A stretch of 47,336 nucleotides of DNA, taken from positions 1 to 47,336 of the forward strand of contig JAGWDQ010000080.1 of assembly GCA_018260615.1 (NCBI GenBank), in the 5' to 3' direction. The notes under the pieces were generated by a model. It was not told where the DNA came from, ran no database searches, and saw only the letters and a list, made by a program, of their open reading frames with translations. This document shows positions 25,137 to 47,336 of the stretch, in pieces. Positions within the stretch are counted from its first letter, which is position 1, and each line of letters opens with the position of its first letter. Source of the DNA: Candidatus Altarchaeum sp. GTDB taxonomy: Archaea > Altiarchaeota > Altiarchaeia > Altiarchaeales > Altiarchaeaceae. The position numbers were made by a program, and so were the translations under genes.

Positions 25137-25336
25137 AATCAAAAATGAGTTTTAAATATAGAAACTGCTAACCCACCTGCTGCATGTTCCACAAGTATTG
25201 CGTTTGTCTCCTTTCTTGCTTTGTGAACCTCTCCTACTACATCCTTGTCCTTTAATATTCTCATAATTTTTGTTTTCATTCTCATTTTTTACCATTAAAA
25301 TAATTAATCTTACATTCAATTAAAATCAATCTTAAA

Positions 25337-25670
25337 ATGATTATCAGCCCCCGGAAAACTGATGCTCTTCGGAGAACACAGCGTTGTCTATGGAAACCCC
25401 TGCATTGCAACAAGTATAAATAAACGACTTGATGTTTATTTGAACGATAAAAATGAAAACGGAAAAGAATTAGAATGCACAACAATTGATGCACTCGGAA
25501 TTAATGCAAAATTTCCTTCTAACTTTGAACAGCATAAATTTTTAAATTTAACAATTGCGAAATTTTTTGAGAAATACGGACAGAAAAATTTTGAAATCAC
25601 AACAAAACCAATACTAAAGGGTTTGGGAAGTTCATCCGCTGTTGCTACTATTTTCTATTTTTTGGAATAA
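25337..25670 (+). pseudogene. Truncated, frameshifted 5' copy of mevalonate kinase
   Basis: 25315-25643 aligns to 26446-26779. A 5-bp deletion (CATTC) follows ATGATT, and homology ends just after the GLGSSSA motif. Confidence 0.9.
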
Positions 25671-25756
25671 TTTAATCTAATAATGTAATGTTAATTTAAT
25701 TTATTTAATGAATTTTTCAAAACATAAAACTTGAGTATAATTTATTCTATAATAAA

Positions 25757-25984
25757 ATGGAAATATGGGAAGGAAATCCGAATATGGAAGCATTCCATCA
25801 GATGGAAGAAGAATTATTGAAGAAACACCACGGCAAAGTGGCGGTCTTTTGCAATGGAAAATTGGCAGCCATAGGTGAAGACATAGTAAAAGCAATTGAA
25901 AAGGCAAAGAAAGTTTACAATGGAAAAACCTTTTTTGTAAGAGAATTGTTTACAGCAGAAGAACAATCAGAAGCAATACTATAA
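25757..25984 (+). CDS. DUF5678-like small protein
   Basis: EELLKKHHGKVAVFCNGKLAAIGED...AIEKAKK resembles the L..Y.GK+VA+..G++...G pattern. Stop is 1 bp before the protease gene. Confidence 0.65.
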   Translation: MEIWEGNPNMEAFHQMEEELLKKHHGKVAVFCNGKLAAIGEDIVKAIEKAKKVYNGKTFFVRELFTAEEQSEAIL

Positions 25985-25985
25985 G

Positions 25986-26411
25986 ATGAAGTGTTGGAAA
26001 TATAGGAATGATATGCCGCAGGTTCCAGTACGGCTGATTGGAAAAATAAGTGTTGAGGAATGGGCTCTTGTGGATAGCGGAGCAACCTATTGTGTAGTTC
26101 ACCCAACGATTGCCATAGCAATGGAATTAAAATTTACAGGTGAGAAACAAGTGTATGGATTGGGTAGCAAAAAACCCGTACTTGCAGATGTAGCGAACAT
26201 AGAACTTGAGATTGGCGATTTCAGAGAAAAAATTGATGTTGTATGTATAAAAGAAGAGTATTATCCTATAAAAGCACATAAGGTGATTATAGGCAGAAAT
26301 TTTTTGAATAAGTATGCGATTATTCTAGATGGTGAAAAGATATATCTTGAAGATAAAGAAATGTTGAAGAAAAAGTTGAGAGAATATAACCAAACATCAC
26401 CCTGCCAATAG
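25986..26411 (+). CDS. Retropepsin-like (clan AA) aspartyl protease
   Basis: ALVDSGATYCVV catalytic motif and IIGRNFL second motif. Confidence 0.88.
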   Translation: MKCWKYRNDMPQVPVRLIGKISVEEWALVDSGATYCVVHPTIAIAMELKFTGEKQVYGLGSKKPVLADVANIELEIGDFREKIDVVCIKEEYYPIKAHKVIIGRNFLNKYAIILDGEKIYLEDKEMLKKKLREYNQTSPCQ

Positions 26412-26467
26412 GGATTTTATTAGTGATTTATAATTAATTTCATCTTTCAATTAAAATCAATCTTAAA

Positions 26468-27418
26468 ATGATTCATTCATCAGCCCCCGGAAAACTGATG
26501 CTCTTCGGAGAACACAGCGTTATCTATGGAAACCCCTGTATAGCAACAAGTATAAATAAACGACTTGATGTTTATTTGAACGATAAAAATGAAAACGGAA
26601 AAGAATTAGAATGCACAACAATTGATGCACTCGGAATTAATGCAAAATTTCCTTCTAACTTTGAACAGCATAAATTTTTAAATTTAACAATTGCGAAATT
26701 TTTTGAGAAATACGGACAGAAAAATTTTGAACTGACAACAAAACCAATGCCAAAAGGTCTTGGTAGTTCATCTGCGGTTGTTGTTGCAGCGGTAAAAGCA
26801 CTTTCAGCATTATATAATTTAACATGGAGCAACGACGAAATTTTTAAATTTTCTTATGAGATAGTTAAAGAAGGTCAAAATGGCAGGGCATCCGGATATG
26901 ATATTGCTGTTGCTGTATATGGGGGGACAATAAGATATGAAAATAAAAACGGAGATATGAAGGTAAAGAAATTAAAGAACATCAGAAATTTAATCGCAAT
27001 TGATACTGGAATTAAGTCCTCAACAACAGAACTTGTCCGGGAAATTTCCGAAAAGCGGAACAAATACAAAGAAATTTTTGACGGAATTTTTAAAATCATA
27101 AATAAAATCGTTGACGAAGGCGAAAAGGAAATAATGAATGAAAATTATGAAAAAATTGGCGAACTGATGAATATAAATCACGGGATTTTAAATGCTATGG
27201 GATTAAGCACTTATGAAATTGAAATTTTAATCAACGGAATAAAACCATACTGTTACGGGGCAAAAATTTCAGGAGCTGGAAGAGGAGATTACATAATAGC
27301 AATTTGTAAAGAGCAAAGCAAGAATGACTTAATGAATTATTTGAGGGATAGAAAAATTGAGGCGTTTGAAATTTTGCCGGCTGAAGGGGTTGATGTAAAA
27401 TTTATTAAAAATTTATAA
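26468..27418 (+). CDS. mvk: Mevalonate kinase (GHMP kinase)
   Basis: APGKLMLFGEHSVIYG, PKGLGSSSA, ASGYDIA, GAKISGAGRG. Confidence 0.9.
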   Translation: MIHSSAPGKLMLFGEHSVIYGNPCIATSINKRLDVYLNDKNENGKELECTTIDALGINAKFPSNFEQHKFLNLTIAKFFEKYGQKNFELTTKPMPKGLGSSSAVVVAAVKALSALYNLTWSNDEIFKFSYEIVKEGQNGRASGYDIAVAVYGGTIRYENKNGDMKVKKLKNIRNLIAIDTGIKSSTTELVREISEKRNKYKEIFDGIFKIINKIVDEGEKEIMNENYEKIGELMNINHGILNAMGLSTYEIEILINGIKPYCYGAKISGAGRGDYIIAICKEQSKNDLMNYLRDRKIEAFEILPAEGVDVKFIKNL

Positions 27419-27419
27419 A

Positions 27420-28307
27420 ATGGAATCAGATAATGCCTTGGTTGTATTTCAGGGAAAGGGCATCAGAAGAATATGGCATAATGATGGATGGTATTTTTCA
27501 GTGGTTGATGTATGTGGAGTGCTTACAGACAGCGTTGATGCCGGAGCATACTGGAGGAAGTTGAAACAACGGCTATCAGAAGAAGGAAGTGAGGTCGTGA
27601 CATTTTGTCACGGACTGAAATTAGAAGCTTCTGACGGCAAAAAATATATAACTGACTGCTCTGACACAGAAGGAATTCTTCGTATTATCCAGTCAGTCCC
27701 TTCCCCTAAGGCAGAGCCATTTAAGCGCTGGCTGGCAAAAGTCGGCTATGAGAGAATACAGGAAATAGAAAACCCGGAACTTGCACAGGAGCGGGCAAAG
27801 AAATACTATGAACTAAAAGGTTATTCTAAAAACTGGATTGACAAACGATTAAGAGGAATTGCCATAAGACAGGACTTAACGGATGAATGGAAAGAAAGAG
27901 GAATTGAAGAGAACAAGGATTATGCTATTCTTACAAACGAGATTTCAAAGGCAACATTTGGCGTATCAGTCAAAGACCATAAAGAAATAAAAGGTCTTGA
28001 CCCGAAGTTTAAAAACCAGAATTTACGAGACCACATGACGGATTTGGAATTAATTTTCACAATGCTTGGCGAGGCATCAACGACTGAAATAACAAAATCA
28101 GATAACTCCGAGGGGCTTGAAGAATGTCTTGAATCGGCAAAAGAAGGCGGAAAAATTGCAGGAAATGCGAGACATGAATTGGAAAATAGAACGGGAAGGA
28201 AAGTTGTGAACAAAGATAATTACGATAAAATTGCCGGGAAAGTGAAAAAAGTAGAGGACAATTCAAAACTAATATCTCAGAAAAAGAAATTAAAAGATTA
28301 TGTGTGA
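27420..28307 (+). CDS. BRO-N domain protein (phage antirepressor-like)
   Basis: IRRIWHNDGWYFSVVDV, YWRKLKQRL, RIIQSVPSPKAEPFKRWLAKVGYERIQEI, NLRDHMTDLELIF. Confidence 0.85.
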   Translation: MESDNALVVFQGKGIRRIWHNDGWYFSVVDVCGVLTDSVDAGAYWRKLKQRLSEEGSEVVTFCHGLKLEASDGKKYITDCSDTEGILRIIQSVPSPKAEPFKRWLAKVGYERIQEIENPELAQERAKKYYELKGYSKNWIDKRLRGIAIRQDLTDEWKERGIEENKDYAILTNEISKATFGVSVKDHKEIKGLDPKFKNQNLRDHMTDLELIFTMLGEASTTEITKSDNSEGLEECLESAKEGGKIAGNARHELENRTGRKVVNKDNYDKIAGKVKKVEDNSKLISQKKKLKDYV

Positions 28308-28308
28308 G

Positions 28309-28368
28309 AGAAAAATTGAAAATTTTGAAATTTTGCCGGCTGAATGGGTTGATGTTGAAATTTATTAA
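28309..28368 (+). repeat. Degenerate duplicate of the mvk 3' end (27350-27408)
   Basis: TTTGAAATTTTGCCGGCTGAA(G/T)GGGTTGATGT is shared, with similar flanks. The two copies bracket the BRO gene. Confidence 0.85.
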
Positions 28369-28460
28369 GCCAAATTTAGTTCCGTAAATTTTATAAATTT
28401 GAACAATTTTTAAAGAAATTTTAATTATTTTATCGGAATTAAAACGAATGAAAATTTAAA

Positions 28461-33989: not shown

Positions 33990-34063
33990 ATTTTATTTAA
34001 TGTTAGAAAAGTTTAATTAATAATATAACTAACGATAACCATCTTTTAAATCCAAAGATTTTA

Positions 34064-34247
34064 AAAATCTCCGAGCAATTGTAAAAATCTTGCAGATTTT
34101 TAGAATATTATTTAAAAATGCTTCAGCATTTTTAAAGATTGAAAATTTTATAAATTTTCAGTATTAAAAACCTCGCAGGTTTTTAAAGATTGAAAACTTG
34201 TAGTTTTCAGTAAAAATACTTGAAGTATTTTTAGTATAGCGAGGTGA
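34064..34247. repeat. Tandem array of six perfect short hairpins (REP/BIME-like modular element)
   Basis: Hairpins at 34082-34102, 34111-34136, 34140-34160, 34164-34186, 34191-34209 and 34211-34233, with stems of 8-12 bp and loops of 2-3 nt. Confidence 0.9.
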
Positions 34248-34293
34248 ATCAATTCATTGGTTGGTAATTCACCATACATTAATAAAAACTAAA

Positions 34294-34491
34294 ATGGCAC
34301 CAGAAGAAGTTGGGGCAAAAGAGAGTAACAAAAAGGAAAATATTAACTTTTCGGAAATATATGAGATAAGTATTGAAGATATATGGAGATATGCAAAGCT
34401 GCATGAAAAGGAAACAAAAGAGTGGATAGAAAAAACAGAAAAGGAGGAAATAGAAACAGCTAAATATGCAAGAAATTATTTGGTTCACTGA
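34294..34491 (+). CDS. Small charged hypothetical protein
   Basis: Probable ATG at 34294 (MAPEEVG...). ORF track start 34261. No motif recognised. Confidence 0.4.
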   Translation: MAPEEVGAKESNKKENINFSEIYEISIEDIWRYAKLHEKETKEWIEKTEKEEIETAKYARNYLVH

Positions 34492-34727
34492 AAGTTGAAA
34501 TTGACTGTTTCATGTTAAAAATAGAAGAAGGACTTTTATAGTAATAAAGGAACATTCTGTAAAAATGTTCAAGTTTGAAATACCATCAAGCAATTCACCA
34601 AAAATTTTGGTTAAACACGCAACAATTTACCAACATATGACTTTCTCAGTTTTGATGCAAGAGCAACTCTTACAAGTAGTAAGAATAGATAAAGCAGGGT
34701 AAAATCCTATAATTTTTATGTAATAAA

Positions 34728-36149
34728 ATGACTATCTCTATTGTTAAAACTAAAGAAGAAATTATTAAAAAATTTGAAGAAGAGTTTCCTTATCCAGCAG
34801 TTTCAGATGACTTAATTAAGACAATAGAGGAAAAAATAGGTAAACGTTTTTTTACCAATAATATTAAAAGTTTTATTTTTGAATATCCTTACATTGAAAA
34901 AGAATGGAGGGAAATTTATTCCTTACTTTATTGTAAAACAAATTATTTCAAAACAAACCCGTATGTATTTCGCATACATATGATAAATAAAAGCATAGAA
35001 CATATAGATGAGTTAGACATGAGTTCTTATTTAGGATATATTACAGTAAGGCCTTTACCAACAAATTATCTTTCAAAAATTGTGATGAAACCAAACAAAA
35101 ACTTCTACGACCTCAATGATAATGAAAAGTTATTTGTGATTACCGTAAACCAAGAGGTACACATAGGGAGTAAAAAAATAGAATTTCAGGCGTTTCCTTT
35201 TTTCTCTCAAGATGCTATGGTCACAGTATGCGCACACGCAGATGTATGGATGGTATCTAACATAATGCATAAGAGATATGGACTGGACGAAATAAGTATA
35301 GAAAAAATTGTTTCAAAACTACCTCCATCAGATAGGGGAAGAAACATTCCCTCAGTAGGTTTAACTCTGGAGCAGCTTGCGTATGCTCTGCACGCGAATA
35401 ATTGGTATGCCAGAATAAGATCACGGCGGTTGGAAAATAATGACCTGAAAAAAAATAAGCAAAAAATTATGGAAATTATGCAATGCATTGATTCATCCAT
35501 TGAAAGTGGAATTCCCTGCATACTTGCTTTTAGTAATCATGTAATTGTTATTGCAGGACATACTCTTGATGAAAACAACAACAGAGCATATATAATTTTT
35601 GACGATTCCGGTGCCCATATTGTCCATACATTTAACGAGTCAGAACCAAAATTCAGCATAAAAGTATCTGTGGAACAACTGATGGAAATATTAGAGCTGC
35701 AGAATGGAGAAGAAATTGCTATTTTATGTCCTGAATTTGAAAGAATATATTTTCCACTTGAGAGTGTGCAGCACAACACAGAATCAATTATTGATGGGAT
35801 ATCTAAGGACGCAACCAAAACAGAAGGTGTTAGAAATGCGTTTGCAGATATTCTAAAAAATAAAAGTTATAGAATACTTCTTGCAGATTCTAAAAAATTG
35901 AAAGAATTTTTCTCCGAGAACAATGTTACTGATTTCAATAATTACTCTTTGTCGCATTATATATGGCTTGTTGAAATTTACTCAGAAAAAAGGGGCGACC
36001 CAAATGACTTAAAGGGATACTTGCTTCTTGATGCAAGTGCACATAAATACGATACCAAATATTGTTTTATTAATAGTAGTAATGGAAAAGAGATAATTCA
36101 ACCTGCACCTGAAGGAAAAGTAATGTCTTTATTGGAAGAATTTGATTAG
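34728..36149 (+). CDS. Hypothetical protein with predicted papain-like (C39-related) cysteine-peptidase core
   Basis: Q-x6-C (QDAMVTVC), GLTLEQL, NHVIVIAGH and IIFDDS in papain-type Cys/His/Asp order. Confidence 0.55.
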   Translation: MTISIVKTKEEIIKKFEEEFPYPAVSDDLIKTIEEKIGKRFFTNNIKSFIFEYPYIEKEWREIYSLLYCKTNYFKTNPYVFRIHMINKSIEHIDELDMSSYLGYITVRPLPTNYLSKIVMKPNKNFYDLNDNEKLFVITVNQEVHIGSKKIEFQAFPFFSQDAMVTVCAHADVWMVSNIMHKRYGLDEISIEKIVSKLPPSDRGRNIPSVGLTLEQLAYALHANNWYARIRSRRLENNDLKKNKQKIMEIMQCIDSSIESGIPCILAFSNHVIVIAGHTLDENNNRAYIIFDDSGAHIVHTFNESEPKFSIKVSVEQLMEILELQNGEEIAILCPEFERIYFPLESVQHNTESIIDGISKDATKTEGVRNAFADILKNKSYRILLADSKKLKEFFSENNVTDFNNYSLSHYIWLVEIYSEKRGDPNDLKGYLLLDASAHKYDTKYCFINSSNGKEIIQPAPEGKVMSLLEEFD

Positions 36150-36223
36150 TCCTGTACCACTTCATTTTAATAATTTTGTAACTACTCACCCGCCATAAAA
36201 AATTACAGGTAAATTTTTGATTT

Positions 36224-36349
36224 TTACGCTCACTCCGTTCCTGTATTTTAAAATTTCGTAAATTTTGAAATTGTATTTTTTTGAAATTTTCACGGGTAAT
36301 TTAAAAATCTTGCAGATTTTTAAAGATTGAAAACTCATAGTTTTCAGTA
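36224..36349. repeat. Copy of intergenic repeat modules (CGCTCACT motif plus double-hairpin unit)
   Basis: TTACGCTCACTCCGTTC (36224-36240). TTAAAAATCT-tgc-AGATTTTTAA, AGAT, TGAAAACT-cat-AGTTTTCA, GTA (36301-36349) matches the units at 34111-34212. Confidence 0.85.
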
Positions 36350-36380
36350 ATTTCCTACCACGTGAGGAGTTACCAACATA

Positions 36381-37535
36381 TTATTTATTCGCCACAATCT
36401 TTATCACATCCCCACTCTTCAGCACATAATTCTTCCCGATATTCATCCTCGTCTTACAATTTACCGCCGTAATAAAATTTTTTCCTATATCCGTATGAAC
36501 CATATAAGCCAAATCCACGGGTGTTGAATCGTTCCGGACAAGGCGTGCATCCGGAAGCACATTTCCTTTTGAATCGCTGAATTTATTTTCATCCTCTACG
36601 GGATAAGCAACAATATAATGTCCGATTTCAAATATACATTTATTTATTGCACTCTGAACACCTGTTCCATTATATTTCTGCAGTTGATTCTTAATGAAAT
36701 TTATTGCTTTTTCCTGACTGGCATTTAAATTTTTCAAAATTTTAAAATCATTGTCTCCTGGAAGGTAATCAATAATGCCTCCTTTTGCTGCAAGATGCAA
36801 TGCGAGTTCTCCGTCGGCAAATCCCGGAATTATGCTGTATTTTTCGCTCAGCCGTTCAAAATTTTTATTTTTATCTTTGTCAATCTTATTCCCAAACAGC
36901 AAAATTTTCTTTGAAATTTCCCTTAATTTAAATGAGAATTCCCTTAATTCGTCATCGTTCTTTAAAGTCATGTTCCCGAGTGCTGCCTTCACTTCATGTT
37001 CGGTAATGCCCAGTCCGGAAACCATAGATACAATTTCTTTAAGCAGGTCGTTTCTTTCGTATTTTACCTTTCCGGAAATTTTGCTCCAGTTCCTTTTTAT
37101 AATATCGTAAAACCATAAATTTATCTCGTCCTCTAAAAATTTTATATCGTTTTCGGGGTCATAATTTTCTGTTTCCTCTCCTTTGTCATTGGTTGTTCCC
37201 GAAATGTCAATAATATGAATCAGCACATCGGCATTTCTCAAATCATCAAGAAACTGATTTCCAAGTCCCTTTCCGAGATGGGCATCGGGAACTAATCCCG
37301 CAACATCAATAATTTCAACGGGAATGAATCGCTGCTGATTTATACAAACGGAATTCTTCGGATTACATTTAACATCTAATTCTTTACATACGCAGTCAGT
37401 CCGGACATATCCCATTCCGACATTCGGATTTATCGTCGTAAACGGATAATTTGCGATTTGCACATCTGCAAGTGTTGTTGCCTTAAAAAATGTTGATTTT
37501 CCCACATTCGGCTTTCCGACAATTCCTATTTTCAT
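36381..37535 (-). CDS. ychF: YchF/Obg-family NTPase (archaeal COG0012-type) with TGS domain
   Basis: GIVGKPNVGKSTFF, ANYPFTTINPN, DVAGLV, NKID, C-terminal LAYMVHTDIG...GDVIKI. Confidence 0.93.
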   Translation of the reverse strand: MKIGIVGKPNVGKSTFFKATTLADVQIANYPFTTINPNVGMGYVRTDCVCKELDVKCNPKNSVCINQQRFIPVEIIDVAGLVPDAHLGKGLGNQFLDDLRNADVLIHIIDISGTTNDKGEETENYDPENDIKFLEDEINLWFYDIIKRNWSKISGKVKYERNDLLKEIVSMVSGLGITEHEVKAALGNMTLKNDDELREFSFKLREISKKILLFGNKIDKDKNKNFERLSEKYSIIPGFADGELALHLAAKGGIIDYLPGDNDFKILKNLNASQEKAINFIKNQLQKYNGTGVQSAINKCIFEIGHYIVAYPVEDENKFSDSKGNVLPDARLVRNDSTPVDLAYMVHTDIGKNFITAVNCKTRMNIGKNYVLKSGDVIKIVANK

Positions 37536-37537
37536 TG

Positions 37538-37596
37538 TTAAAATTTTAGGTTAAAATTTAGGGTTAAAATTTAGGGTTAAAATTTAGGGTTAAAAT
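37538..37596. repeat. 13-bp tandem repeat (TTAAAATTTAGGG x3 perfect plus two imperfect flanks) just upstream of the ychF start
   Basis: Perfect units at 37551-37563, 37564-37576 and 37577-37589. Confidence 0.9.
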
Positions 37597-37636
37597 TTTT
37601 TTCGCCAACCTTTTCTTAAAGAAAAGGCTGATGTCC

Positions 37637-37798
37637 TGATTTTCCCACATTCGGCTTTCCGACAATTCCTATTTTCATTGTTAAATTTTTATGAAATTTT
37701 TAGTGTTAAATTTTTGATATTAAGTAAAATGCAAAACAACAATAATAAAATTCTTTTCGCCATCTTTAACTTTCCGACAATTCCTATTTTCATTGTTA
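37637..37798 (-). repeat. Two extra copies of the ychF translation start region
   Basis: 37637-37685 is identical to 37494-37542 (49 bp). 37770-37798 is identical to 37512-37540 (29 bp). Confidence 0.92.
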
Positions 37799-37883
37799 TA
37801 TCTTAATTCATTAATTTCATAATTTTTATTATAAATTTTACATTATAAATTTAATTTGCTATTAATAAAATAAAGAAAGAAGT

Positions 37884-39899: not shown

Positions 39900-39925
39900 A
39901 ATTAATAAAATTTAAAATTTTAAAA

Positions 39926-40048
39926 ATGTCCATTCTTTCAGATGACATAGGCAGTTTTCCCCTGCCAGACGGAATAAGCAGAAACGAAATTTCACTCATC
40001 ATCTCGCTGCCGCTCGGAGATTTTCAAAAAAATTTGAAAATTGCTGAA
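39926..40048 (+). pseudogene. 5' fragment (41 codons) of the metE-like gene
   Basis: 123-bp direct repeat of 42180-42302 with few substitutions. The ORF track 39926-40192 extends into unrelated sequence. Confidence 0.92.
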
Positions 40049-40193
40049 AAATTTGCAGGTAAGGAAATTAATTTATTTAATATCCTAAAATTAATTTATG
40101 ATGTTAAAATTTTCAAAACGCAAAACACCTATAAAAAGATTAAAATGAATTTTATTGTTATTTTTAATAAAACTATTATGTCATCGCAGTAAA

Positions 40194-41783
40194 ATGACAT
40201 CCAAACGAATAATATTTACTGGACAGTCAGGTATAAAAATCGACGGTATACTCAAAGATTTTATAAACAAACATTCATCTTTTGTCAGAGGACGTCAAAA
40301 ACCTCTCATTTTGAAGATTGAAGGTGAGATGAAAAATATTTATTTAAAAGAACATAATGACGCTGCTGACTCTGCTACTCTATGGATGAGAAATATATTA
40401 ATGTTACCTGCTCCTACTCTTTATAATCTTTGGGAAAAGGCATTTGAATCTGTTTTAAAAACAATTGAGAATGGAGAAAATAAAAATAAAGATATTTTTA
40501 TTAATCTTCATGCTTGTTTTTATCACCATACTACAGTTGAATATCTTTCTCCCGCAAAGATAGAATTATTAAAGAAATTCAATCCTGATTTATTTATTAC
40601 GCTGATAGATGATATTTATGATATTCATAATAGACTCAGATATCCTAATCAAATTTTTTGTGGTTTATATGGAGGTGCATCTGATCCTGTAGGGGCCATA
40701 TTTGAATTGATGCGGATATTGGATTGGAGAGCAAAAGAAATAATGATGACTAAATATTTTGCGCATGAACTCGGCGTTCCAAATTATGTTTTTGCAGTAA
40801 AGCATTCGTATGACACTTTATATAAATTAATTTTTGAAGACAAACATACTTTTTATATTTCTCATCCGATTAGTGAGGTTAGACGCTTACAAAAAATCGG
40901 GGAGAACGAGAAAGCTAATCAGATGATTGAAGAGATTCGTATGCTGGGAGTTAAATTCTCTTCTGAATTTGTCAGCTTTCTTCCAACCACTATTGATGAA
41001 CTTAGAATCCAACATAGGAATAATAAAAAAAAAGAACGTATTCCAAAACTAATGCCGCGATGGGACTCGGAAAAATACCTAAATCCTACAGATTTACTTT
41101 TTACACCTCCTCGCAAAAGGAATGAATTTGACCCAATATGGGAAGAAGAACACAAAAACTCAAAAGAACTTTGCTTATTACTTGAGGAGTTGTACAAACT
41201 CATAGAGGTTCAGGTAAGTTCTCGTGATCATAAGCTTGTTGAACAAAGTCGTTTTCTTTTTGTTTACCGGCCGTGTTTCAATGGTAACATCTCCGGTGGG
41301 GTATGGAAAGAAATTCAATACTTTAGGATGCTTACTAACAGTGAAATTGATAAGAAATGTTTTATTTATATGCCAACCGAAGACCAAAACAAATTAAAAA
41401 TCAGACAATTTGAAAAAATTTTAGAAAGTGAGATTAGAAACGGAACAATTACCTGCAAGGATGAAAAACTTATTACGTTGGATCCTGAAGAAGAAAATAA
41501 GTTAATTGCTGCCGACAATAATATTAACATTTTAACAGATGTATTTAAAGAAATAATGGATAATAAATCCATAAGATGTTCTGGTATCGAGAGGCGTGGT
41601 TTAGAGGAGGATTCATCTCAAAAAGCTATATCTTTTATAGAGAATATAACTGAACAATATGTTGCTATTTTTAACCAATACATCAATCAATACAAACAAG
41701 ATAAAACTGTTTTGTGGGAGGAAAATAATCAATCCCCCGGAACATTAGTAGATAAAATTATTAAATATCTTAAAAATAAATAA
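40194..41783 (+). CDS. Putative NMP-kinase-like P-loop domain fused to a nucleoside 2-deoxyribosyltransferase (NDT)-like domain
   Basis: Probable start MTSKRIIFTGQSGIK (degenerate P-loop), INLHACFY, PDLFITLIDD, DWRAKE. Then YISHPIS and RDHKLVEQSRFLFVYRP...SGGVWKEIQYF, similar to the NDT D..+....++......S.G...E pattern. Confidence 0.6.
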   Translation: MTSKRIIFTGQSGIKIDGILKDFINKHSSFVRGRQKPLILKIEGEMKNIYLKEHNDAADSATLWMRNILMLPAPTLYNLWEKAFESVLKTIENGENKNKDIFINLHACFYHHTTVEYLSPAKIELLKKFNPDLFITLIDDIYDIHNRLRYPNQIFCGLYGGASDPVGAIFELMRILDWRAKEIMMTKYFAHELGVPNYVFAVKHSYDTLYKLIFEDKHTFYISHPISEVRRLQKIGENEKANQMIEEIRMLGVKFSSEFVSFLPTTIDELRIQHRNNKKKERIPKLMPRWDSEKYLNPTDLLFTPPRKRNEFDPIWEEEHKNSKELCLLLEELYKLIEVQVSSRDHKLVEQSRFLFVYRPCFNGNISGGVWKEIQYFRMLTNSEIDKKCFIYMPTEDQNKLKIRQFEKILESEIRNGTITCKDEKLITLDPEEENKLIAADNNINILTDVFKEIMDNKSIRCSGIERRGLEEDSSQKAISFIENITEQYVAIFNQYINQYKQDKTVLWEENNQSPGTLVDKIIKYLKNK

Positions 41784-41793
41784 AAGTGTTAAA

Positions 41794-42027
41794 ATGGAAG
41801 AGAAAGCAATTTTGTCATTGAATAGGAAAGCAATTTTGTTGCGAAGTTATTCGGAAGAAAGCAATACTGCGGAAAAAATTTTAAAAAAAGCAAATATTGA
41901 TTATGTCCAAATTTTTCTACCAGATGGGGATCATTCCCCGAGCATAATAAGTCAGGACAGCGCATATCCCTATGAAGGTATAGGAGGCATCCAACTTTTT
42001 GTCAGAGGCGCCAATAAAACCAAATAA
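41794..42027 (+). CDS. Small glutaredoxin/thioredoxin-fold-like protein without cysteines
   Basis: AEKILKKANIDY...PSII...YEGIGGIQLF resembles a glutaredoxin core. No CxxC, in fact no Cys. Confidence 0.45.
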   Translation: MEEKAILSLNRKAILLRSYSEESNTAEKILKKANIDYVQIFLPDGDHSPSIISQDSAYPYEGIGGIQLFVRGANKTK

Positions 42028-42179
42028 TTTGGTTTTATTTTGACAGGTTGTATATTGGAGGTCTAAAAATTTTATTTCCTTACAACCTATTGACCAGGCA
42101 AAGGATCGTCTAACTGGAAAAACAAATATGTAATTTCCAATTTTGGTGAGTCAGTATCAAATTCTTAACCTTAACTAAA

Positions 42180-43265
42180 ATGTCTGTACTTTCAGATGAC
42201 ATAGGCAGTTTTCCCCTGCCAAACGGAATAAGCAGAAACGAAATTTCACTCATCACCTCGCTGCCGCTCGGAGATTTTCAAAAAAATTTGAAAATTGCAG
42301 AAGGCATTGCACGCAAAGAAATTTCAAAGGAAAGCGAATTATTCGGCAGATTTTCAAATGTCGTTCAGGATGCGATGCTTAAAAAGGTCCTTGCAAATGT
42401 GGATGTCCCGACTTATCCGCAATTCAGAGATATGATTGCTTCTTTTTACAATTTAATTGAGAAATTTCAGTCGGATGAGCCGTTTGTTATAAAAGATGAA
42501 TATGCAATTATTCCCGAATTGCTTGTGTTAAGCAGCGATAAATTCAGGGAAAAATTAGAAAATTTCGGAATTGAATGTATAAATTTAAGGGTTTGCGTTA
42601 CAGGTCCCGTTGATTTGTATCTTAACAAAATCGGATTTCATATTGACGGCGAAATACTTGCCAATTTTGCAAAAAGTGTGGGAAAATTTGTAAAGAATGC
42701 AATTATTGCTCAAAAATTTATAAAGACAACGGTTATAGCGATTGATGAACCAAGTGTCGGATTAAATTCAAATATGATCGCAAGCGATGAGGATTTAATC
42801 AATGGCTGGAATATAGCAATTGATGCCGCAAAGAAAAATGGTATTGATACGGAAATACATCTGCATTCAATAAATAAGGTTGATACGGTTCTTAAATCAA
42901 ATATTAATGTTATTGACGCCGATGTTGAAAATTTAAAGGACAGATACTCTCTTCAAAAGAATGACTTGGAAAGATATGATAAATTTATGCGTGCGGGAAT
43001 AGCGAAAAGCAATGTTTTTGATATTGTTGAGGATTATAAAAAAATTTACAACATTGACCTGTGGCAAACAAAAAATTATGCTCAAATTTTTGAGGTTGAA
43101 ACACAGAAAGTAATTACTGAACGGCTGAAAAAGGCGTATGAAATTTACGGAGAACGGATTAAATATGCAGGTCCTACCTGCGGATTGGGTTCGTGGCCAA
43201 CACAGGAGACCGCATCAAAGTTATTAAGATATACTTCTAATGCCGTGCATTGTGCTGGTTTCTAA
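42180..43265 (+). CDS. metE: Archaeal single-barrel MetE-like (cobalamin-independent methionine synthase family) protein
   Basis: DDIGSFPLP, YPQFRDM, VCVTGPVDL, IAIDEPSVG, IHLHS, GPTCGLGSW. Confidence 0.8.
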   Translation: MSVLSDDIGSFPLPNGISRNEISLITSLPLGDFQKNLKIAEGIARKEISKESELFGRFSNVVQDAMLKKVLANVDVPTYPQFRDMIASFYNLIEKFQSDEPFVIKDEYAIIPELLVLSSDKFREKLENFGIECINLRVCVTGPVDLYLNKIGFHIDGEILANFAKSVGKFVKNAIIAQKFIKTTVIAIDEPSVGLNSNMIASDEDLINGWNIAIDAAKKNGIDTEIHLHSINKVDTVLKSNINVIDADVENLKDRYSLQKNDLERYDKFMRAGIAKSNVFDIVEDYKKIYNIDLWQTKNYAQIFEVETQKVITERLKKAYEIYGERIKYAGPTCGLGSWPTQETASKLLRYTSNAVHCAGF

Positions 43266-43874: not shown

Positions 43875-43928
43875 AAAAATCAAAATTTAACTTATCAAAA
43901 ATGATTTCAAAAAGATCTTTGTCATTTT
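43875..43928 (+). repeat. 54-bp direct repeat, identical to 47283-47336 (runs off the window)
   Basis: AAAAATCAAAATTTAACTTATCAAAAATGATTTCAAAAAGATCTTTGTCATTTT at both sites, including an ATG (43901 and 47309). Confidence 0.95.
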
Positions 43929-44224
43929 TTGTTGGGGAAAATTCAAAAATTACATATTTGAGAAGATCAATAAAAGCAAAAGATCCTTTACTTATTACTC
44001 TGAAAAGTATGTATCCCAAAAAGAACAACACGGTAATCAGATACACACTTTCTTTAATAAGAAACGGATGGAAAAAGCAGGGTTGCAAAATAAGTGAAAA
44101 ATATATATCTGATGAAAAGAAAAACAGAAAGAAAAAAATAGAACTTTTAGAGATTTCTTTAATTTCCCCAAAATCACCTTATTTCAATTCCTTCGGAGAT
44201 AAAAATTACAATGAAGAAGGATAG
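43901..44224 (+). pseudogene. Probable chimeric or dead ORF beginning with the duplicated start of the gene at 47309
   Basis: The first nine codons are shared with the window-edge repeat. No motif recognised in the remainder. Confidence 0.35.
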
Positions 44225-44423
44225 CAATGATGGAGTTTTCCTGAGCGAGAATTTGCTGAATGAAGCGGTCTTGCTGACAGCTTATGTCCCTGTAGAGGGC
44301 AGTTAGTAAAATTTAACCCATAACTTGCAGGTTTTGTGTAGTTTATGTAGAATTTTGTTGAAACAGATTACGCAAATTTTGTATAGTTACGGTTTAAACC
44401 TAAAAGGTAAACAGAAAAGGAAC

Positions 44424-44831
44424 ATGAGACATATATTAATTGGAGCGATAGCAATAGCATTGATATTTGCATTTGTATCTGAAGTATATGCAACAAACTA
44501 TTACACTTACGAATCAGTAGCTTGCGGGCCACAGAATACAGGAGTAACAGATTTTACATATACAACAAATTATTATGGATATTCTACATCTCAATGGAAT
44601 TGGCAAGGTGGAACAACATGGTGGGGATATTCGGACTCAAGTAAAAACGGATGTAAACCTAAGACGTCGCAGAATGTTAACGGATTCGGCGTGTGTGCTA
44701 GAGCATATAACAGCTTATTTAATCCTTACAATAAAAACTGTAGTAAGTCAGATGGCAAATATAGTTATGCTTTCGCTGGATGGAGCTCTAACATGGGAAG
44801 TCAACAAAGAGAGGTATACTGTACCAGCTAA
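44424..44831 (+). CDS. Small secreted Tyr/Trp/Gly-rich protein with five cysteines
   Basis: Probable start MRHILIGAIAIALIFAFVSEVYA (signal peptide; ORF track start 44325). Mature part about 112 aa. Confidence 0.7.
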   Translation: MRHILIGAIAIALIFAFVSEVYATNYYTYESVACGPQNTGVTDFTYTTNYYGYSTSQWNWQGGTTWWGYSDSSKNGCKPKTSQNVNGFGVCARAYNSLFNPYNKNCSKSDGKYSYAFAGWSSNMGSQQREVYCTS

Positions 44832-44956
44832 TTAAAAGCAGACGATGTATGATAAACATACAACAAGAGATTAATCCTTTTTATTTTTTTATTTATTTAC
44901 CTTTAATAATTTAACTCATCAAATAACTTAATAAAAATAACATTTAACTATTAAAT

Positions 44957-45961
44957 ATGGCCACAAATAGAAAATTTACAGGAAAATTTGGAATTGCAAT
45001 AATGATTGCAGTAATCCTGCTTATAGCTGGAACTGTTTTAGTTTTTAATAATTATCTAATATCTAATCCACAAAATTCAACAATTGAAAACCAGTATAGT
45101 GTTGAAAATAAAACATCCGAATATAATGAACCAAGTCCACTTGCAAAAGAGGCAGAAGAACTCGCAAAAAAAGAAAATATTACAGGTACCTCCTCATGGT
45201 CATCAACATTAGATTCTCTAACTCAAACATCAGAGCCAAAATTTGTTGTTGGTGAAAAATATACTTATTTTGTCAGATGGCCTCAACCAACAGATATGAA
45301 TAAACCAGGGATGCATTCACCAAATGTAATATTCAATGATTATAGGTATTTTAATATTTCATTTACATTGGAGAAAAAAGAGAAAATAAATAGAACAGAT
45401 TGTTATAAAATTTCTACAGAAGGTTCAGGGGAGGTAATTAATGGATTTGTGAAAGATGAAAGAGGAACAAGACCAATAATATCTGTCCCTATTGACTCAT
45501 CAGTAAGTTATATTGGTGTTAAAACAGGAAATTTTGTTAATCCCGAAACAGGGGACATAATAAAAGGGATAGAAGAAAAACATGAAGTAAGTGGGTTGTC
45601 AACTCTTAACGTATATACACCTTGGATGTTAAAATTGTCAGAAGGAATAAAATGGACAAATATTTATGAACAAAAAAGTACAGGTAGTATAGTTTGTAAT
45701 GAAGGTATGTGCAAAGCTATTAAAGAAAATGAGGAAATTACAGAAGAGGAAACCTGTGAAGTTAAGGAAATTGAAAATATAAATAAAAGAAAATGTTTTA
45801 AAGTGGAATGCAGATCAAAATTATGTAAAAACAATCTATGTGAAATTACGTATAAAAGAATATATTGGGTAGATGTAGAAAAGAGAATAACTGTAAAATA
45901 TCAATTATGGTACCAAAATCTTCAAACAGTTGAAGTAGAGTTAGTAAACTATGAAAAATGA
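44957..45961 (+). CDS. Membrane-anchored exported protein with DUF3108/LolA-like beta-repeat motifs
   Basis: N-terminal TM, then EKINRTDCYKI, ENINKRKCFKV and YWVDVEKRITVK. Overlaps the next gene by 4 bp (ATGA). Confidence 0.6.
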   Translation: MATNRKFTGKFGIAIMIAVILLIAGTVLVFNNYLISNPQNSTIENQYSVENKTSEYNEPSPLAKEAEELAKKENITGTSSWSSTLDSLTQTSEPKFVVGEKYTYFVRWPQPTDMNKPGMHSPNVIFNDYRYFNISFTLEKKEKINRTDCYKISTEGSGEVINGFVKDERGTRPIISVPIDSSVSYIGVKTGNFVNPETGDIIKGIEEKHEVSGLSTLNVYTPWMLKLSEGIKWTNIYEQKSTGSIVCNEGMCKAIKENEEITEEETCEVKEIENINKRKCFKVECRSKLCKNNLCEITYKRIYWVDVEKRITVKYQLWYQNLQTVEVELVNYEK

Positions 45962-47283
45962 AACACGCTGAAATATTTATAATTTTAGGAATAGCGGCAA
46001 TTGTAACTGCTATTTTGTTGATAGGACTGAACATAAAAGAACCCGATAAAGATAATATAAATTACATTGCAAATTCTGAAGATAAAGATAATACAAATAT
46101 AACAAATATAAACAAAGAAAATATTAATAAAGCGGAAAACATTTCAAACATCTCTTCTTCTGCACCTTTGCACATAAATTCTTCTGAAAACACTTCTAAA
46201 ATAAAAAGATATATTTATAAACAAACGCTCGAAAATTATACAACAATATTATATGTCGAAAATTATACATCTTCTGATGGGAATGTGTATATTGTAATAG
46301 AAGCAAATGACAATCCTAAAAAAGAGGAATTTGAGCTTAAGAAATACGAAGGCGGATGGACACCAAATATTAAATGTCCCCCCTGCGAATCTACAATTAC
46401 ATCAAACTATGTAAATAGAACAATCTTTATAAATCAAAAAACGAAAAATGTAAAAATAGCCAATGTGCCTTGGCTAACATTGTTTAAAAAGGAAAATAAC
46501 ATCATTTACAAAAAATTGACATATCCTACTGGTGAAGGAAAATGGGAAGAAAACTATAAAAGTTTCAATTACAACAATGTAGATAATATGAGTGTAGAAA
46601 CAATTAAAAATATACCTGACTTAATGTTTTTAGTTGATATTCTATATCCGGATAATATAAGCGTAGAAAGAATTGGAAATATAGAAGATTTAATATTTTC
46701 ATTTGACATTTTATATTTTCAAGATTTAAAAAATATTGAAAAATGTAACATTACAGGAATAAAAAATGTAAAACTTATAAAAACAGAATGCAATAATGAA
46801 TCTGGGATGGAGCTGGTATGTAATATGGGAGGTTGCAATAATTATACTATGTATAATTGCTATTCATTTTGGAATATCACTTACAATCTAACTTATAGAG
46901 AAGAAACCAACAATAAAAAAAATATTAGCAAATCATGGACTGAAAAGTATGAATGTGAAATTGGACTTACCGAAGAACAGGAAAAAGAACAAAAAAACCA
47001 ACACTCGAGGTATTGTGATGGATTTAATTTACATCCTTCTTTTGATAAGATGTATTTTGCAGGAACTGAAAATTTCAATGGAAAAATAACATATAAAATT
47101 ATATACGAAAAATTTGAAAATGTTAGTGAAATAAGTATTTGGCATTTTGTTGATACATTTCTGATTGATAAAGAAGAAGGAATTATATTAAAGGCAACTG
47201 CAAAGAACAGATGGATAAGCAATGATGTGCCGGATGAATTTATCACAACCAAAGAAATTGTATTGGAAAAAGAAGACAATTAA
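45958..47283 (+). CDS. Membrane-anchored exported protein, Asn-rich linker, C-terminal LolA-like motif
   Basis: N-terminal TM, N-x-S/T-rich linker, ENFNGKITYKI and FLIDKEEGIILKAT similar to the previous gene. Confidence 0.6.
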   Translation: MKHAEIFIILGIAAIVTAILLIGLNIKEPDKDNINYIANSEDKDNTNITNINKENINKAENISNISSSAPLHINSSENTSKIKRYIYKQTLENYTTILYVENYTSSDGNVYIVIEANDNPKKEEFELKKYEGGWTPNIKCPPCESTITSNYVNRTIFINQKTKNVKIANVPWLTLFKKENNIIYKKLTYPTGEGKWEENYKSFNYNNVDNMSVETIKNIPDLMFLVDILYPDNISVERIGNIEDLIFSFDILYFQDLKNIEKCNITGIKNVKLIKTECNNESGMELVCNMGGCNNYTMYNCYSFWNITYNLTYREETNNKKNISKSWTEKYECEIGLTEEQEKEQKNQHSRYCDGFNLHPSFDKMYFAGTENFNGKITYKIIYEKFENVSEISIWHFVDTFLIDKEEGIILKATAKNRWISNDVPDEFITTKEIVLEKEDN

Positions 47284-47336
47284 AAAATCAAAATTTAACT
47301 TATCAAAAATGATTTCAAAAAGATCTTTGTCATTTT
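47283..47336 (+). repeat. Second copy of the 54-bp repeat, with a probable gene start at 47309 continuing beyond the window
   Basis: Identical to 43875-43928. Confidence 0.9.

What the first reader, a model, noticed from the sequence alone, without database searches (positions are those of the whole stretch)
25315..47336. Recurrent integrase-free insertion signature: duplicated gene termini around accessory cassettes
Seen at five sites: mvk 5' (~330 bp), mvk 3' (~60 bp), ychF 5' (49 and 29 bp), metE 5' (123 bp), and an unknown gene 5' (at least 54 bp, 43875/47283). In four of them the dead fragment and the second copy enclose accessory genes. Many mismatches between copies are synonymous or conservative (mvk TGC/TGT, ATT/ATA, GGT-TTG-GGA/GGT-CTT-GGT; metE TCC/TCT, GCT/GCA), as expected for two functional alleles rather than neutral decay. 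Inference: incoming DNA from related strains recombines homologously in the core gene and illegitimately at the other end (homology-facilitated illegitimate recombination). This would leave the resident terminus as a scar and provide a general cassette-uptake route.
Basis: partly seen in the sequence, partly recalled or inferred. Interest (0 to 1): 0.7.

Follow-up and report, generated by a model that had tools for sequence, protein, structure and literature searches.

The report
Integrase-free cassette insertions duplicating gene ends
In this uncultivated groundwater archaeon (Candidatus Altiarchaeum), small accessory gene cassettes and tiny hairpin elements sit just outside core genes, next to a spare copy of the gene's start or end. 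About 90 such sites exist in the genome, none with an integrase, which points to a recombination-based way of taking up genes previously described only for bacterial restriction-modification genes.

Summary
All five repeat pairs are in the sequence, far beyond chance. Related genomes hold empty sites for four of them. The pattern is genome-wide: 94 orphan copies of gene termini against 14 of internal segments, and 87 lie just outside the end they copy.

Orphan and gene differ mostly at third codon positions. 47% of changes are synonymous (56% in young cassette sites). Random change gives 20%, decay in place about 32%, and true orthologues 57-62%. DNA from diverged lineages was therefore involved.

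The genome has one Xer-like tyrosine recombinase, no serine recombinase, and no transposase in the cargo. Cargo is diverse and rich in DNA methylases, restriction enzymes, toxin-antitoxin and defence genes.

- The ychF site is a hairpin-element insertion with identical duplicates and no genes.
- The fifth site is a tandem cassette array with a repeated head of about 0.5 kb, broken by a scaffold gap. It is not a dead fragment.
- A missed 276-nt duplicate of a DUF5678 gene shows that the mvk 5' site is two diverged haplotypes in tandem.

I cannot separate it from single-crossover entry of a circle, or from in-place long target duplication followed by allele exchange.

The closest published kind is insertion with long target duplication (Furuta 2010). 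This scan had already met the same pattern elsewhere in this genome.

The parts
24889..25164 (+). Degraded second copy of the DUF5678 cargo gene plus the first 23 nt of the protease gene. It is 80% identical to 25738-26008. This is the left half of haplotype 1.
   Evidence: tblastn 77% over 75 aa; internal stop seen
25139..25299 (-). Segment X (holds a 48-aa ORF on the minus strand). In G002 it lies directly upstream of an intact mvk, so it is ancestral context.
25300..25644 (+). Orphan mvk 5' end (about -38 to +307 of the coding sequence). It has a 5-nt deletion after the ATG. Its last 50 nt are only 76-78% identical to every mvk examined.
25645..26429 (+). Insert between the mvk copies: a 93-nt unique junction spacer, a DUF5678-like gene (25757-25984) and a retropepsin-like aspartyl protease gene (25986-26411).
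26430..27418 (+). Intact mevalonate kinase gene (26468-27418) with its duplicated 5' part (26430-26780) and 3' part (27347-27415). Its C-terminus is altered (ends ...VDVKFIKNL; the orphan copy and G002 end ...VDVEIY) at the junction with Bro-N.
27420..28307 (+). Cargo: Bro-N / DinD-like gene matching the candidate defence family PDC-S13. Paralogues lie on contigs C99, C134, C124 and C68. The gene sits behind mvk in G002 (87% aa) and G003 (64-74% aa over three segments) and is missing there in G001.
28306..28378 (+). Orphan mvk 3' end. It keeps the ancestral C-terminal codons and stop, and it is contiguous with the ancestral downstream flank.
33996..36377 (+). Another cargo slot, between purP and ychF. 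It holds a 473-aa ORF (34728-36149) bracketed by high-copy palindromic repeat arrays. It is absent in G001, and G003/L022 have only the repeats. No gene-end duplicate is present here.
37494..37807 (-). ychF 5' region. The gene start is at 37535. Reading away from the gene: copy 1 (37494-37548), a 13-nt tandem repeat plus a hairpin element (37549-37636), copy 2 (37637-37691), an older truncated element (37692-37769), and copy 3 (37770-37807), which joins the ancestral upstream flank.
39923..40069 (+). Orphan metE 5' end. Its start codon is intact and an 88-aa ORF runs on into the insert.
40070..42176 (+). Insert with a 542-aa ORF of unknown function (40155-41783). The last ~55 nt or so before metE resemble the native metE upstream spacer of L021 and G001.
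42177..43265 (+). Intact short-form methionine synthase gene (metE-like, PRK06052). Its duplicated 5' part is 42177-42323.
43875..44411 (+). Head of cassette module 1: a leader motif, a 107-aa ORF (43901-44224) and the region upstream of the next gene. Its ends recur at 47283-47336 and, beyond the gap, at contig 47557-47590.
44325..47283 (+). Body of module 1: three genes for secreted or membrane proteins (168, 334 and 441 aa). The 334-aa protein is 26% identical to its counterpart in module 2 beyond the gap.
47283..47336 (+). Start of the second head copy (100% identical), cut by a 220-N scaffold gap at the window end.

Best explanation
The three cargo-bearing sites (mvk 5', mvk 3', metE 5') are products of host recombination between diverged Altiarchaeum haplotypes. 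No element-encoded enzyme is involved.

Proposed steps (inferred):
1. DNA from a related lineage arrives. It carries a cassette next to the same core gene.
2. It pairs with the resident gene through the shared coding sequence.
3. Its other end is joined without homology inside the resident gene. Alternatively the fragment first closes into a circle and enters by one crossover.
4. The cell ends up with one intact gene, the cassette, and a stranded copy of the gene's terminus.
5. Later gene conversion between the two copies produces the identical cores.

The direct repeats could then let the cassette loop out as a circle and enter the same gene end in another lineage. Gene termini would act as portable homology sites.

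Shown: the duplications, the empty sites, the lack of recombinases, the allele-type divergence, and the genome-wide recurrence.
Inferred: the order of events, linear versus circular entry, and the conversion step.

The ychF site belongs to a second class. There a 60-130 nt three-armed hairpin element inserts with an in-place long target duplication.
For: (1) Orphans are terminal. 94 orphan/terminus pairs against 14 orphan/internal pairs, and 87 lie just outside the terminus they copy, split 45 at 3' ends and 42 at 5' ends.
(2) Divergence is allele-like. Mismatches at codon positions 1/2/3 number 190/139/372 (chi-square p = 8e-29). 47% are synonymous overall and 56% in cassette sites of at least 90% identity. 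Random change gives 20%, my estimate for decay in place is about 32%, and real G000-G001 orthologues give 57-62%. The bias is the same at all distances from the junction.
(3) mvk 5' has interleaved repeats. The order is DUF5678 copy, X, mvk 5', then DUF5678, protease, mvk. Identity is 80% in the accessory part and 94% in the mvk part, so two haplotypes of one locus lie in tandem. X-mvk adjacency is ancestral, as G002 shows.
(4) mvk 3' has three states in three genomes. G001 is empty, G002 has Bro-N and no orphan, and G000 has Bro-N plus an orphan joined at a TTAA microhomology.
(5) The metE slot is empty in L021 and holds different cargo (Bro-N + Fic) in G001.
(6) Recombinases are lacking. The genome has one PF00589 match, on contig C79, no resolvase, no IS66 transposase, and nine TnpB genes, none in cargo.
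(7) Cargo is heterogeneous. 85 ORFs are mostly singletons and are not bounded by high-copy repeats.
(8) In E. coli, duplications of 109-950 bp of the homologous locus arise from a single crossover with a circular molecule (PMC3240628).
(9) Independent assemblies show related duplications. G002 has a 59-nt pair flanking 1.78 kb of cargo, and G001 has a 22-nt tandem copy of the mvk 3' end.
Against: - Both metE copies share a 42-nt in-frame insert and an extra Ser codon that L021 and G001 lack. Both mvk 3' copies share derived bases. This fits an in-place duplication or a very close donor, unless conversion copied these features.
- The hairpin class, which almost certainly duplicates its target in place (26 of 28 copies have direct repeats of 18-178 nt, mostly 94-100% identical), shows the same synonymous bias (48%). 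The bias therefore does not prove that the copies were born diverged.
- The outer edge of the duplication hugs the ORF end. The median extension into the flank is 4 nt at 3' ends and 17 nt at 5' ends, although spacers are about 130-176 nt. This holds even for pairs of at least 95% identity. The model does not predict it.
- No donor haplotype was found for the mvk 5' or metE cassettes.
- Read-level data were not available.
Confidence: 0.5

Rival explanations
1. In-place insertion with long target duplication. An unknown host or element process opens the target with breaks 20-350 nt apart across a gene boundary, inserts the DNA and fills in. The copies start identical and diverge later, when the gene copy or the orphan with its flank exchanges alleles with other lineages.
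For: - Hairpin elements nearly always have long, near-identical flanking repeats.
- The coding parts of the ychF copies are identical.
- Some cassette sites are 97-100% identical.
- The metE and mvk 3' copies share derived characters.
- Both classes have the same geometry and the same tight outer boundary.
- Identical cores with diverged edges, and a U-shaped mismatch profile, fit exchange tracts entering from either side.
- Published bacterial cases of this kind also span start or stop codons (PMC2853133).
Against: - At mvk 5' the cargo's first gene is an 80% homologue of the gene already sitting upstream of the target. That is a coincidence under this model.
- G002 and G001 carry cargo at the same slots without orphans.
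- No enzyme or mechanism is known for this process.
- Young cassette sites already show orthologue-like synonymous bias.
Confidence: 0.3
2. Local tandem segmental duplication within one genome (slippage or unequal sister exchange), followed by deletion, replacement and decay. No foreign DNA is involved.
For: The interleaved repeat order at mvk 5'. Many adjacent short-gap duplicates in G000 and G001.
Against: - The internal segments differ (X versus the protease gene), and X-mvk is the ancestral adjacency.
- Identity is unequal: 80% against 94% within one supposed unit.
- The synonymous bias is well above the decay expectation.
- Cargo (Bro-N, the 542-aa ORF) is absent from relatives' sites.
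Confidence: 0.08
3. Site-specific recombination in trans. The single Xer-like recombinase, or an enzyme missing from the 87%-complete MAG, integrates cassettes whose attachment sites overlap gene ends, as phage-type elements restore the gene they enter.
For: Orphan plus restored gene is the classic outcome for elements that integrate into gene ends (icd with phage 21/e14; from memory). One PF00589 gene exists.
Against: About 90 different target sequences of variable length (22-400 nt) with no common core. No recombinase in or beside any window insert. The repeats are diverged, not identical cores.
Confidence: 0.05
4. Assembly chimera. Co-occurring strain haplotypes were concatenated by the assembler.
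For: - The genome is a scaffolded short-read MAG with 55-nt overlaps at its N gaps, which looks like SPAdes with k = 55.
- The copies look like two alleles.
- The second copy at site 5 abuts a scaffold gap.
- G000 is 2.2 Mb against 1.3-1.7 Mb for its relatives.
Against: - Each fragment-to-cargo junction is unique sequence with no N and no shared 55-mer, so a de Bruijn path needs reads across it.
- No second allele of mvk or metE occurs elsewhere in the bin.
- Similar duplications occur in independently assembled genomes.
- Contamination is 2.5%.
Confidence: 0.07

Closest known systems
[quoted passage not shown] 2000; Furuta, Abe & Kobayashi 2010, PMC2853133)
   Same: Inserts without integrase or transposase, flanked by direct repeats longer than 30 bp of variable length. 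The repeats often span a start or stop codon, so the gene stays intact. Related genomes hold empty sites. The mechanism is unknown. Cargo in this genome includes 7 DNA methylases and several restriction enzymes.
   Different: This is an archaeon. There are about 90 sites in 2.2 Mb, against a few per bacterial genome. Cargo also includes toxin-antitoxin, defence and surface-protein genes and non-coding hairpin elements. Many repeats are 80-94% identical with allele-like differences, whereas the published repeats are nearly perfect (44/46 to 49/49).
Homology-facilitated illegitimate recombination (de Vries & Wackernagel 2002; Prudhomme et al. 2002; summarised in PMC3240628)
   Same: One end is anchored by homology in a shared gene, and the other is joined without homology (a TTAA microhomology at the Bro-N junction). 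It brings in foreign DNA with no dedicated enzyme.
   Different: Experimental events usually delete about as much recipient DNA as they insert. Duplications in the E. coli study came from single crossovers with circles. It has been shown only in bacteria, and DNA uptake in Altiarchaeum is unknown.
C-terminal displacement arrays of Rhs, CDI and T6SS effector-immunity loci (Jackson et al. 2009; Kirchberger et al. 2017, PMC5361080)
   Same: Incoming modules recombine in the conserved part of a gene and push the old end downstream as an orphan. Repeated hits build arrays. The stacked ychF copies and four other doubly hit termini behave alike.
   Different: Those systems diversify one toxin family at its 3' end. 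Here unrelated housekeeping genes are hit at either end, and the orphan has no evident use.
Integrative elements that restore the gene they enter (phage 21/e14 in icd; tRNA-gene islands); from memory
   Same: An intact gene with an element-supplied end plus a displaced end that differs mostly at synonymous sites.
   Different: Those carry an integrase and use a fixed attachment core. Neither is present here.

Membership tests
Insertion with long target duplication (ILTD) | Insert flanked by direct repeats >30 bp of variable length | tested here: met
   Repeats of 55-351 nt in the window and 40-400 nt genome-wide
Insertion with long target duplication (ILTD) | Related genome with an empty site holding one copy of the repeat | tested here: met
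   L021 for metE; G001 for mvk 3'; G002 for mvk 5'; G001, L021, L022 and L023 for ychF
Insertion with long target duplication (ILTD) | No transposase or integrase in the insert | tested here: met
   Pfam on all window ORFs of about 100 aa or more in 23.6-47.3 kb; genome searches
Insertion with long target duplication (ILTD) | The two repeats are copies of one target, nearly identical | tested here: inconclusive
   ychF coding parts are identical. mvk and metE pairs are 85-94% identical with allele-like differences, but share lineage-specific characters
Insertion with long target duplication (ILTD) | Cargo is a restriction-modification unit | tested here: not met
   Window cargo is DUF5678 plus retropepsin, Bro-N/PDC-S13, and an unknown 542-aa ORF. 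Elsewhere in the genome 7 methylases and restriction enzymes are among 80 cargo ORFs
Homology-facilitated illegitimate recombination | Donor and recipient alleles of the anchor gene both leave traces in the product | tested here: inconclusive
   Synonymous fraction is 47-56% against 57-62% for orthologues and about 32% for decay, but the hairpin class shows the same bias
Homology-facilitated illegitimate recombination | Illegitimate junction at 3-10 bp microhomology | tested here: inconclusive
   TTAA at the Bro-N/orphan junction, inferred from G002 and G001. No donor is available for the other junctions
Homology-facilitated illegitimate recombination | Recipient DNA next to the anchor is deleted | tested here: not met
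   Recipient terminus is duplicated, not deleted. Deletion is the usual outcome according to PMC3240628
Homology-facilitated illegitimate recombination | Uptake of linear foreign DNA (competence or conjugation) | not testable with these tools
   No experimental system. Not examined
Integrase-mediated integrative element | Tyrosine or serine recombinase gene in or beside the element | tested here: not met
   None in the window. One PF00589 match on contig C79 and no PF00239 in the genome, which is 87% complete
Integrase-mediated integrative element | Common attachment core shared by insertions | tested here: not met
   Each site repeats its own gene end. No shared sequence at insert edges
Integron | intI, attI and attC-bounded cassettes in one array | tested here: not met
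   No recombinase nearby. Sites are dispersed over about 90 gene ends. attC-like sites were not specifically modelled
DNA transposon / MITE | Terminal inverted repeats and a short target duplication of fixed length | tested here: not met
   Duplications are 18-400 nt and variable. Cargo edges lack repeats. A classical MITE with 17-nt inverted repeats exists at 43512-43692 but is unrelated to the duplications

The most novel reading that the evidence does not exclude
Gene termini serve as portable homology sites for a recombinase-free cassette cycle in Altiarchaeum. A cassette flanked by two copies of a gene end loops out by host recombination as a circle carrying one copy. It moves between co-occurring lineages and re-enters the same gene end by a single crossover. 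This cycle, together with a hairpin element that duplicates 20-180 nt of its target, would account for most of the roughly 0.5-0.9 Mb of extra DNA in this genome relative to its 1.3-1.7 Mb relatives.
Probability: 0.3. Interest if true: 0.75.

Novelty: new variant of a known kind. Interest (0 to 1): 0.58.

Why it matters
Insertion with long target duplication has been known from genome comparisons since 2000, and its mechanism is still unknown. Here about 4% of all gene ends in one archaeal genome carry the signature, from 100% to 70% identity, with both non-coding and gene-carrying inserts.

That gives enough events to test mechanisms statistically, using junctions, polarity, selection on the copies and boundary rules.

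It also suggests how archaea without integrases or active transposons can gain defence and surface genes without breaking core genes. It may also explain why this MAG is about 0.5-0.9 Mb larger than its relatives.

For annotation, the orphans are a source of false short ORFs and apparently split genes.

Tried and rejected
- An exact-protein look-up of the protease cargo found no other assembly.
- The first metagenome scan, with mvk, found nothing. The second, with ychF, gave four close loci.
- I tested whether cargo inserts are bounded by high-copy repeats or hairpin elements. They are not: 11-14% of insert edges against 19% for intergenic DNA.
- I tested whether cargo is co-oriented with the host gene, which would suggest expression capture or an RNA route. 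It is not: 55 same against 30 opposite, with a background of 76%.
- I tested whether mismatches near the internal junction look like error-prone synthesis. They do not. The synonymous fraction is 44-51% at all distances.
- I looked for a recently imported block in the intact mvk by sliding identity to G001, G002 and G003. The result was too noisy to call.
- I tested whether one cargo family could be a mobility gene. It could not. The 85 ORFs are mostly singletons, and the largest cluster has 4 members.
- Rfam finds no known RNA in 24000-47336.
- Termini hit twice: 4 observed against 1.3 expected, so only weak evidence for hot spots.
- The genome-wide scan uses crude gene calls (longest ORFs of at least 120 aa) and BLAST thresholds (at least 40 nt, E ≤ 1e-6, copy number ≤ 2). 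The counts are approximate.

Full report
WHAT THE WINDOW IS

The window is bases 1-47336 of a 50,341-nt scaffold (C80) of a 2.23-Mb MAG. The MAG has 148 scaffolds, 33% G+C, 87% completeness and 2.5% contamination.

Close relatives are named Candidatus Altarchaeum sp. GA_1_1 (G001) and Altiarchaeales archaeon A3 (G002).

The window ends where a 220-N scaffold gap begins. N gaps in the genome are typically flanked by exact 55-nt overlaps, as in a SPAdes-type assembly with k = 55.

Gene content from 23.6 kb onward:
- a transglutaminase-like gene;
- mevalonate kinase (mvk, 26468-27418);
- a Bro-N gene;
- chorismate mutase, an AIR-synthase-like gene, PEP synthase, NAC and PurP;
- a 473-aa ORF;
- a YchF-type GTPase (36381-37535, minus strand);
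- a 671-aa surface protein;
- a 542-aa ORF;
- a short MetE-like methionine synthase (42180-43265);
- unannotated genes for secreted proteins.

THE OBSERVATION

All five repeat pairs are real. Coordinates and identities are listed under the observation check.

1. The ychF copies enclose no gene. Read in the gene's direction, the order is:
   - the ancestral upstream flank;
   - copy 3 (-4 to +24);
   - a truncated element;
   - copy 2 (-4 to +42);
   - a hairpin (stem CCTTTTCTT/AAGAAAAGG, -7.6 kcal/mol, z = -2.0) and a 13-nt tandem repeat;
   - the intact gene.
   The coding parts are identical. G001, L021, L022 and L023 each have one ychF start next to the flank that copy 3 adjoins.

2. At the fifth site, identity runs 43875-43928 = 47283-47336, then the gap, then 44378-44411 = 47557-47590.
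   - The repeat is therefore probably a head of about 537 nt, containing a whole 107-aa ORF, that the assembler collapsed.
   - It heads two modules whose bodies are only distant paralogues (26% identity between the 334-aa and 308-aa proteins).
   - A 25-nt leader motif recurs three times.
   - This is a tandem cassette array, not a dead fragment.

3. It is a degraded second copy of the DUF5678-like cargo gene.

EMPTY SITES AND ALTERNATIVE STATES

- mvk 5': G002 has segment X (25143-25300) directly upstream of an intact mvk.
- mvk 3': there are three states.
  - G001 has mvk followed by the flank. It also has its own 22-nt tandem copy of the mvk 3' end.
  - G002 has mvk, a 49-nt spacer, Bro-N (87% aa) and the flank, with no orphan.
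  - G003 has Bro-N (64-74% aa over three segments) with repeat elements.
  - In G000 the orphan keeps the ancestral C-terminal codons and adjoins the ancestral flank.
  - The intact G000 gene has a changed C-terminus where it meets the Bro-N upstream sequence.
  - The Bro-N/orphan junction falls at a shared TTAA.
- metE 5': CCXY01000204 (L021) has the 671-aa gene directly followed by metE. G001 has other cargo there (a Bro-N + Fic protein and a 107-aa ORF) and no orphan.
- purP-ychF: this spacer is minimal in G001, holds only repeats in G003/L022, and holds the 473-aa ORF in G000.

These intergenic slots are therefore hypervariable across the genus.

GENOME-WIDE PATTERN

I ran a self-BLAST of the MAG with simple ORF calls. 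It gives 94 pairs in which one copy covers a gene terminus and the other is an orphan. Only 14 orphans are copies of internal segments.

- 87 orphans lie just outside the terminus they copy (45 at 3' ends, 42 at 5' ends).
- Gaps between the copies run from 6 nt to 8.4 kb.
- 31 pairs have gaps under 400 nt, 25 of them under 200 nt, and none of these hold cargo ORFs.
- The other 63 have longer gaps, most holding 1-6 ORFs.
- Identity runs from 70 to 100%, with a median of 90%.

The short class. Many of the short gaps hold one family of three-armed hairpin elements.
- A profile built from seven copies finds 28 in the genome.
- 26 of these are flanked by direct repeats of 18-178 nt, mostly 94-100% identical.
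- ychF belongs to this class.

The cargo class. It has 85 ORFs, mostly singletons, and is not bounded by high-copy repeats. Among 80 ORFs scanned outside the window, the commonest families are:
- DNA methylases (7);
- restriction enzymes (TdeIII, GmrSD, YhcG-type);
- HEPN and nucleotidyltransferase pairs;
- AbiEii, PIN and AAA_15;
- surface proteins.
The window's Bro-N protein matches the candidate defence family PDC-S13 at E = 1e-123.

Recombinases. The genome has one tyrosine recombinase match (on contig C79), no serine recombinase and no IS66 transposase. It has nine TnpB genes, none in cargo.

ARE THE COPIES ALLELES OR DECAY PRODUCTS?

Over 8,639 aligned coding sites, mismatches fall 190/139/372 on codon positions 1/2/3 (p = 8e-29). 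331 changes are synonymous and 370 are not.

Synonymous fractions for comparison:

| Source | Synonymous fraction |
|---|---|
| Random single changes | 20% |
| Nine real G000-G001 orthologue pairs, whole genes | 57% |
| Same pairs, terminal 150 nt | 62% |
| Neutral orphan beside a constrained gene (my estimate) | about 32% |
| Observed, all pairs | 47% |
| Observed, cassette sites ≥90% identical | 56% |
| Observed, cassette sites <90% identical | 44% |
| Observed, hairpin class | 48% |

The fraction is even along the repeat.

Most of the divergence therefore arose while both sequences were under selection, which means exchange with diverged lineages. Because the hairpin class shows the same bias, the test does not say whether that exchange happened at the insertion or afterwards.

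SITE-LEVEL DETAIL

- The mvk fragment is identical to the gene over 200 nt. It differs at 3 bases and an indel near the start.
- Over its last 50 nt it is only 76-78% identical to every mvk examined. There the GLGSS motif is kept through synonymous changes.
- Its upstream part is G002-like.
- The metE copies have a similar identical core with diverged edges. At the inner edge the fragment matches L021 where the gene matches G001.
- Both metE copies share a 42-nt in-frame insert and an extra Ser codon that L021 and G001 lack.
- Genome-wide, the mismatch profile is U-shaped: 13% and 11% at the two ends against 8% in the centre.
- These patterns need at least one conversion or exchange breakpoint under any model.

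A REGULARITY THE MODELS DO NOT PREDICT

The outer edge of the duplication sits at the ORF boundary.
- The median extension into the flank is 4 nt at 3' ends and 17 nt at 5' ends.
- The spacer to the next ORF has a median of 130-176 nt.
- The same holds for pairs of at least 95% identity.
- Constraint from neighbouring promoters may explain part of it.

MECHANISM

For the three cassette sites in the window I favour recombination between diverged haplotypes, anchored in the shared gene, with one non-homologous junction.

The strongest site-specific argument is the interleaved repeat order at mvk 5'. There two versions of the same locus lie in tandem:
- DUF5678, X, mvk;
- DUF5678, protease, mvk.

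The mvk 3' site adds recipient-like, donor-like and product states in three genomes.

Published experiments caution that linear HFIR events normally delete recipient DNA. In E. coli, duplications of 109-950 bp arose from circles (PMC3240628).

The main rival is a true long target duplication made in place, as the hairpin elements indicate, followed by allele exchange. I give the two readings 0.5 and 0.3.

An assembly chimera is unlikely, for three reasons:
- each internal junction is unique sequence without N or a shared 55-mer;
- no second allele of these genes is in the bin;
- other assemblies show related duplications.
Reads were not available, so the chimera is not excluded.

COMPARISON WITH KNOWN KINDS

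The pattern meets the descriptive criteria of insertion with long target duplication (Furuta et al. 2010):
- long variable repeats;
- empty sites in related genomes;
- no mobility gene in the insert;
- repeats spanning start or stop codons.

It differs in several ways:
- the host is an archaeon;
- the density is about 90 sites in 2.2 Mb;
- the cargo is broader;
- there is a non-coding hairpin class;
- the repeats are diverged.

It works like the displacement arrays of Rhs and T6SS loci, but at housekeeping genes and at either end. It is not an integrase element, an integron or a transposon.

EARLIER NOTES OF THIS SCAN

Other windows of this genome, and one other Altiarchaeum genome, were already reported with the same pattern. 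Those notes led me to the Furuta paper, which I read myself.

New in this report:
- the counts and the calibrated codon test;
- the boundary rule;
- the cargo profile;
- the window's empty sites;
- the DUF5678 duplicate.

Noticed in passing
window 39990-40035 and 42244-42289; inverted partner near 136-173: Both metE copies carry a 42-nt in-frame insert (14 codons) that is absent from the metE of L021 and G001. It resembles a dispersed palindromic repeat, so it may be a small mobile element read as protein.
   Followed up: partly
window 34040-34233 and 36165-36354 (also 80-233): Arrays of a roughly 50-nt palindromic repeat (core AAAATCTTGCAGATTTTT) bracket the 473-aa ORF. The family occurs on most contigs of the genome. 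The ORF has paralogues on C99, C100, C53 and C21 and is absent from G001.
   Followed up: partly
window 43512-43692: A MITE of about 181 nt with 17-nt terminal inverted repeats (GTGTCTAATTT...). Copies at 75-98% identity lie on at least eight other contigs.
   Followed up: partly
window 37537-37601: A 13-nt tandem repeat (GTTAAAATTTAGG, about 4.5 copies) lies between the ychF start and the hairpin element. The end of the insert supplies the bases immediately upstream of the ychF ATG.
   Followed up: no
genome-wide; e.g. window 27416-27420 and 28366-28378: The outer edge of terminal duplications lies within a few nt of the stop codon (median 4 nt) or about 17 nt upstream of the start, although spacers are about 130-176 nt. 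No current model predicts this.
   Followed up: partly
L016 (G001) 1170-1225: G001 has its own 22-nt tandem copy of the mvk 3' end, separated by 9 nt. It also has four further short-gap duplicates of 52-64 nt at 98-100% identity near gene boundaries in 19 kb.
   Followed up: partly
L018 (G002) 1158-1214 and 2998-3056: In G002 a 59-nt copy of the chorismate mutase promoter region flanks 1.78 kb holding two ORFs (271 and 264 aa). The upstream copy appears to drive the first cargo gene.
   Followed up: partly
G000 C105:12295-15361: The second GHMP kinase gene of the genome (C105:12559-13479, 31% identical to mvk) also has orphans at both its ends. Four genes have orphans at both ends, against about 1.4 expected.
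   Followed up: no
window 25362-25670 and 39926-40192: The orphans keep start codons and open frames (102 and 88 aa) that run into the insert. They would be called as short hypothetical genes.
   Followed up: no
G000 C99:23585-24797 and C134:17875-19893: Bro-N/PDC-S13 genes occur in tandem with 5' fragments of themselves. On C99 they lie close to a paralogue of the 473-aa ORF, so this is another variable island.
   Followed up: no
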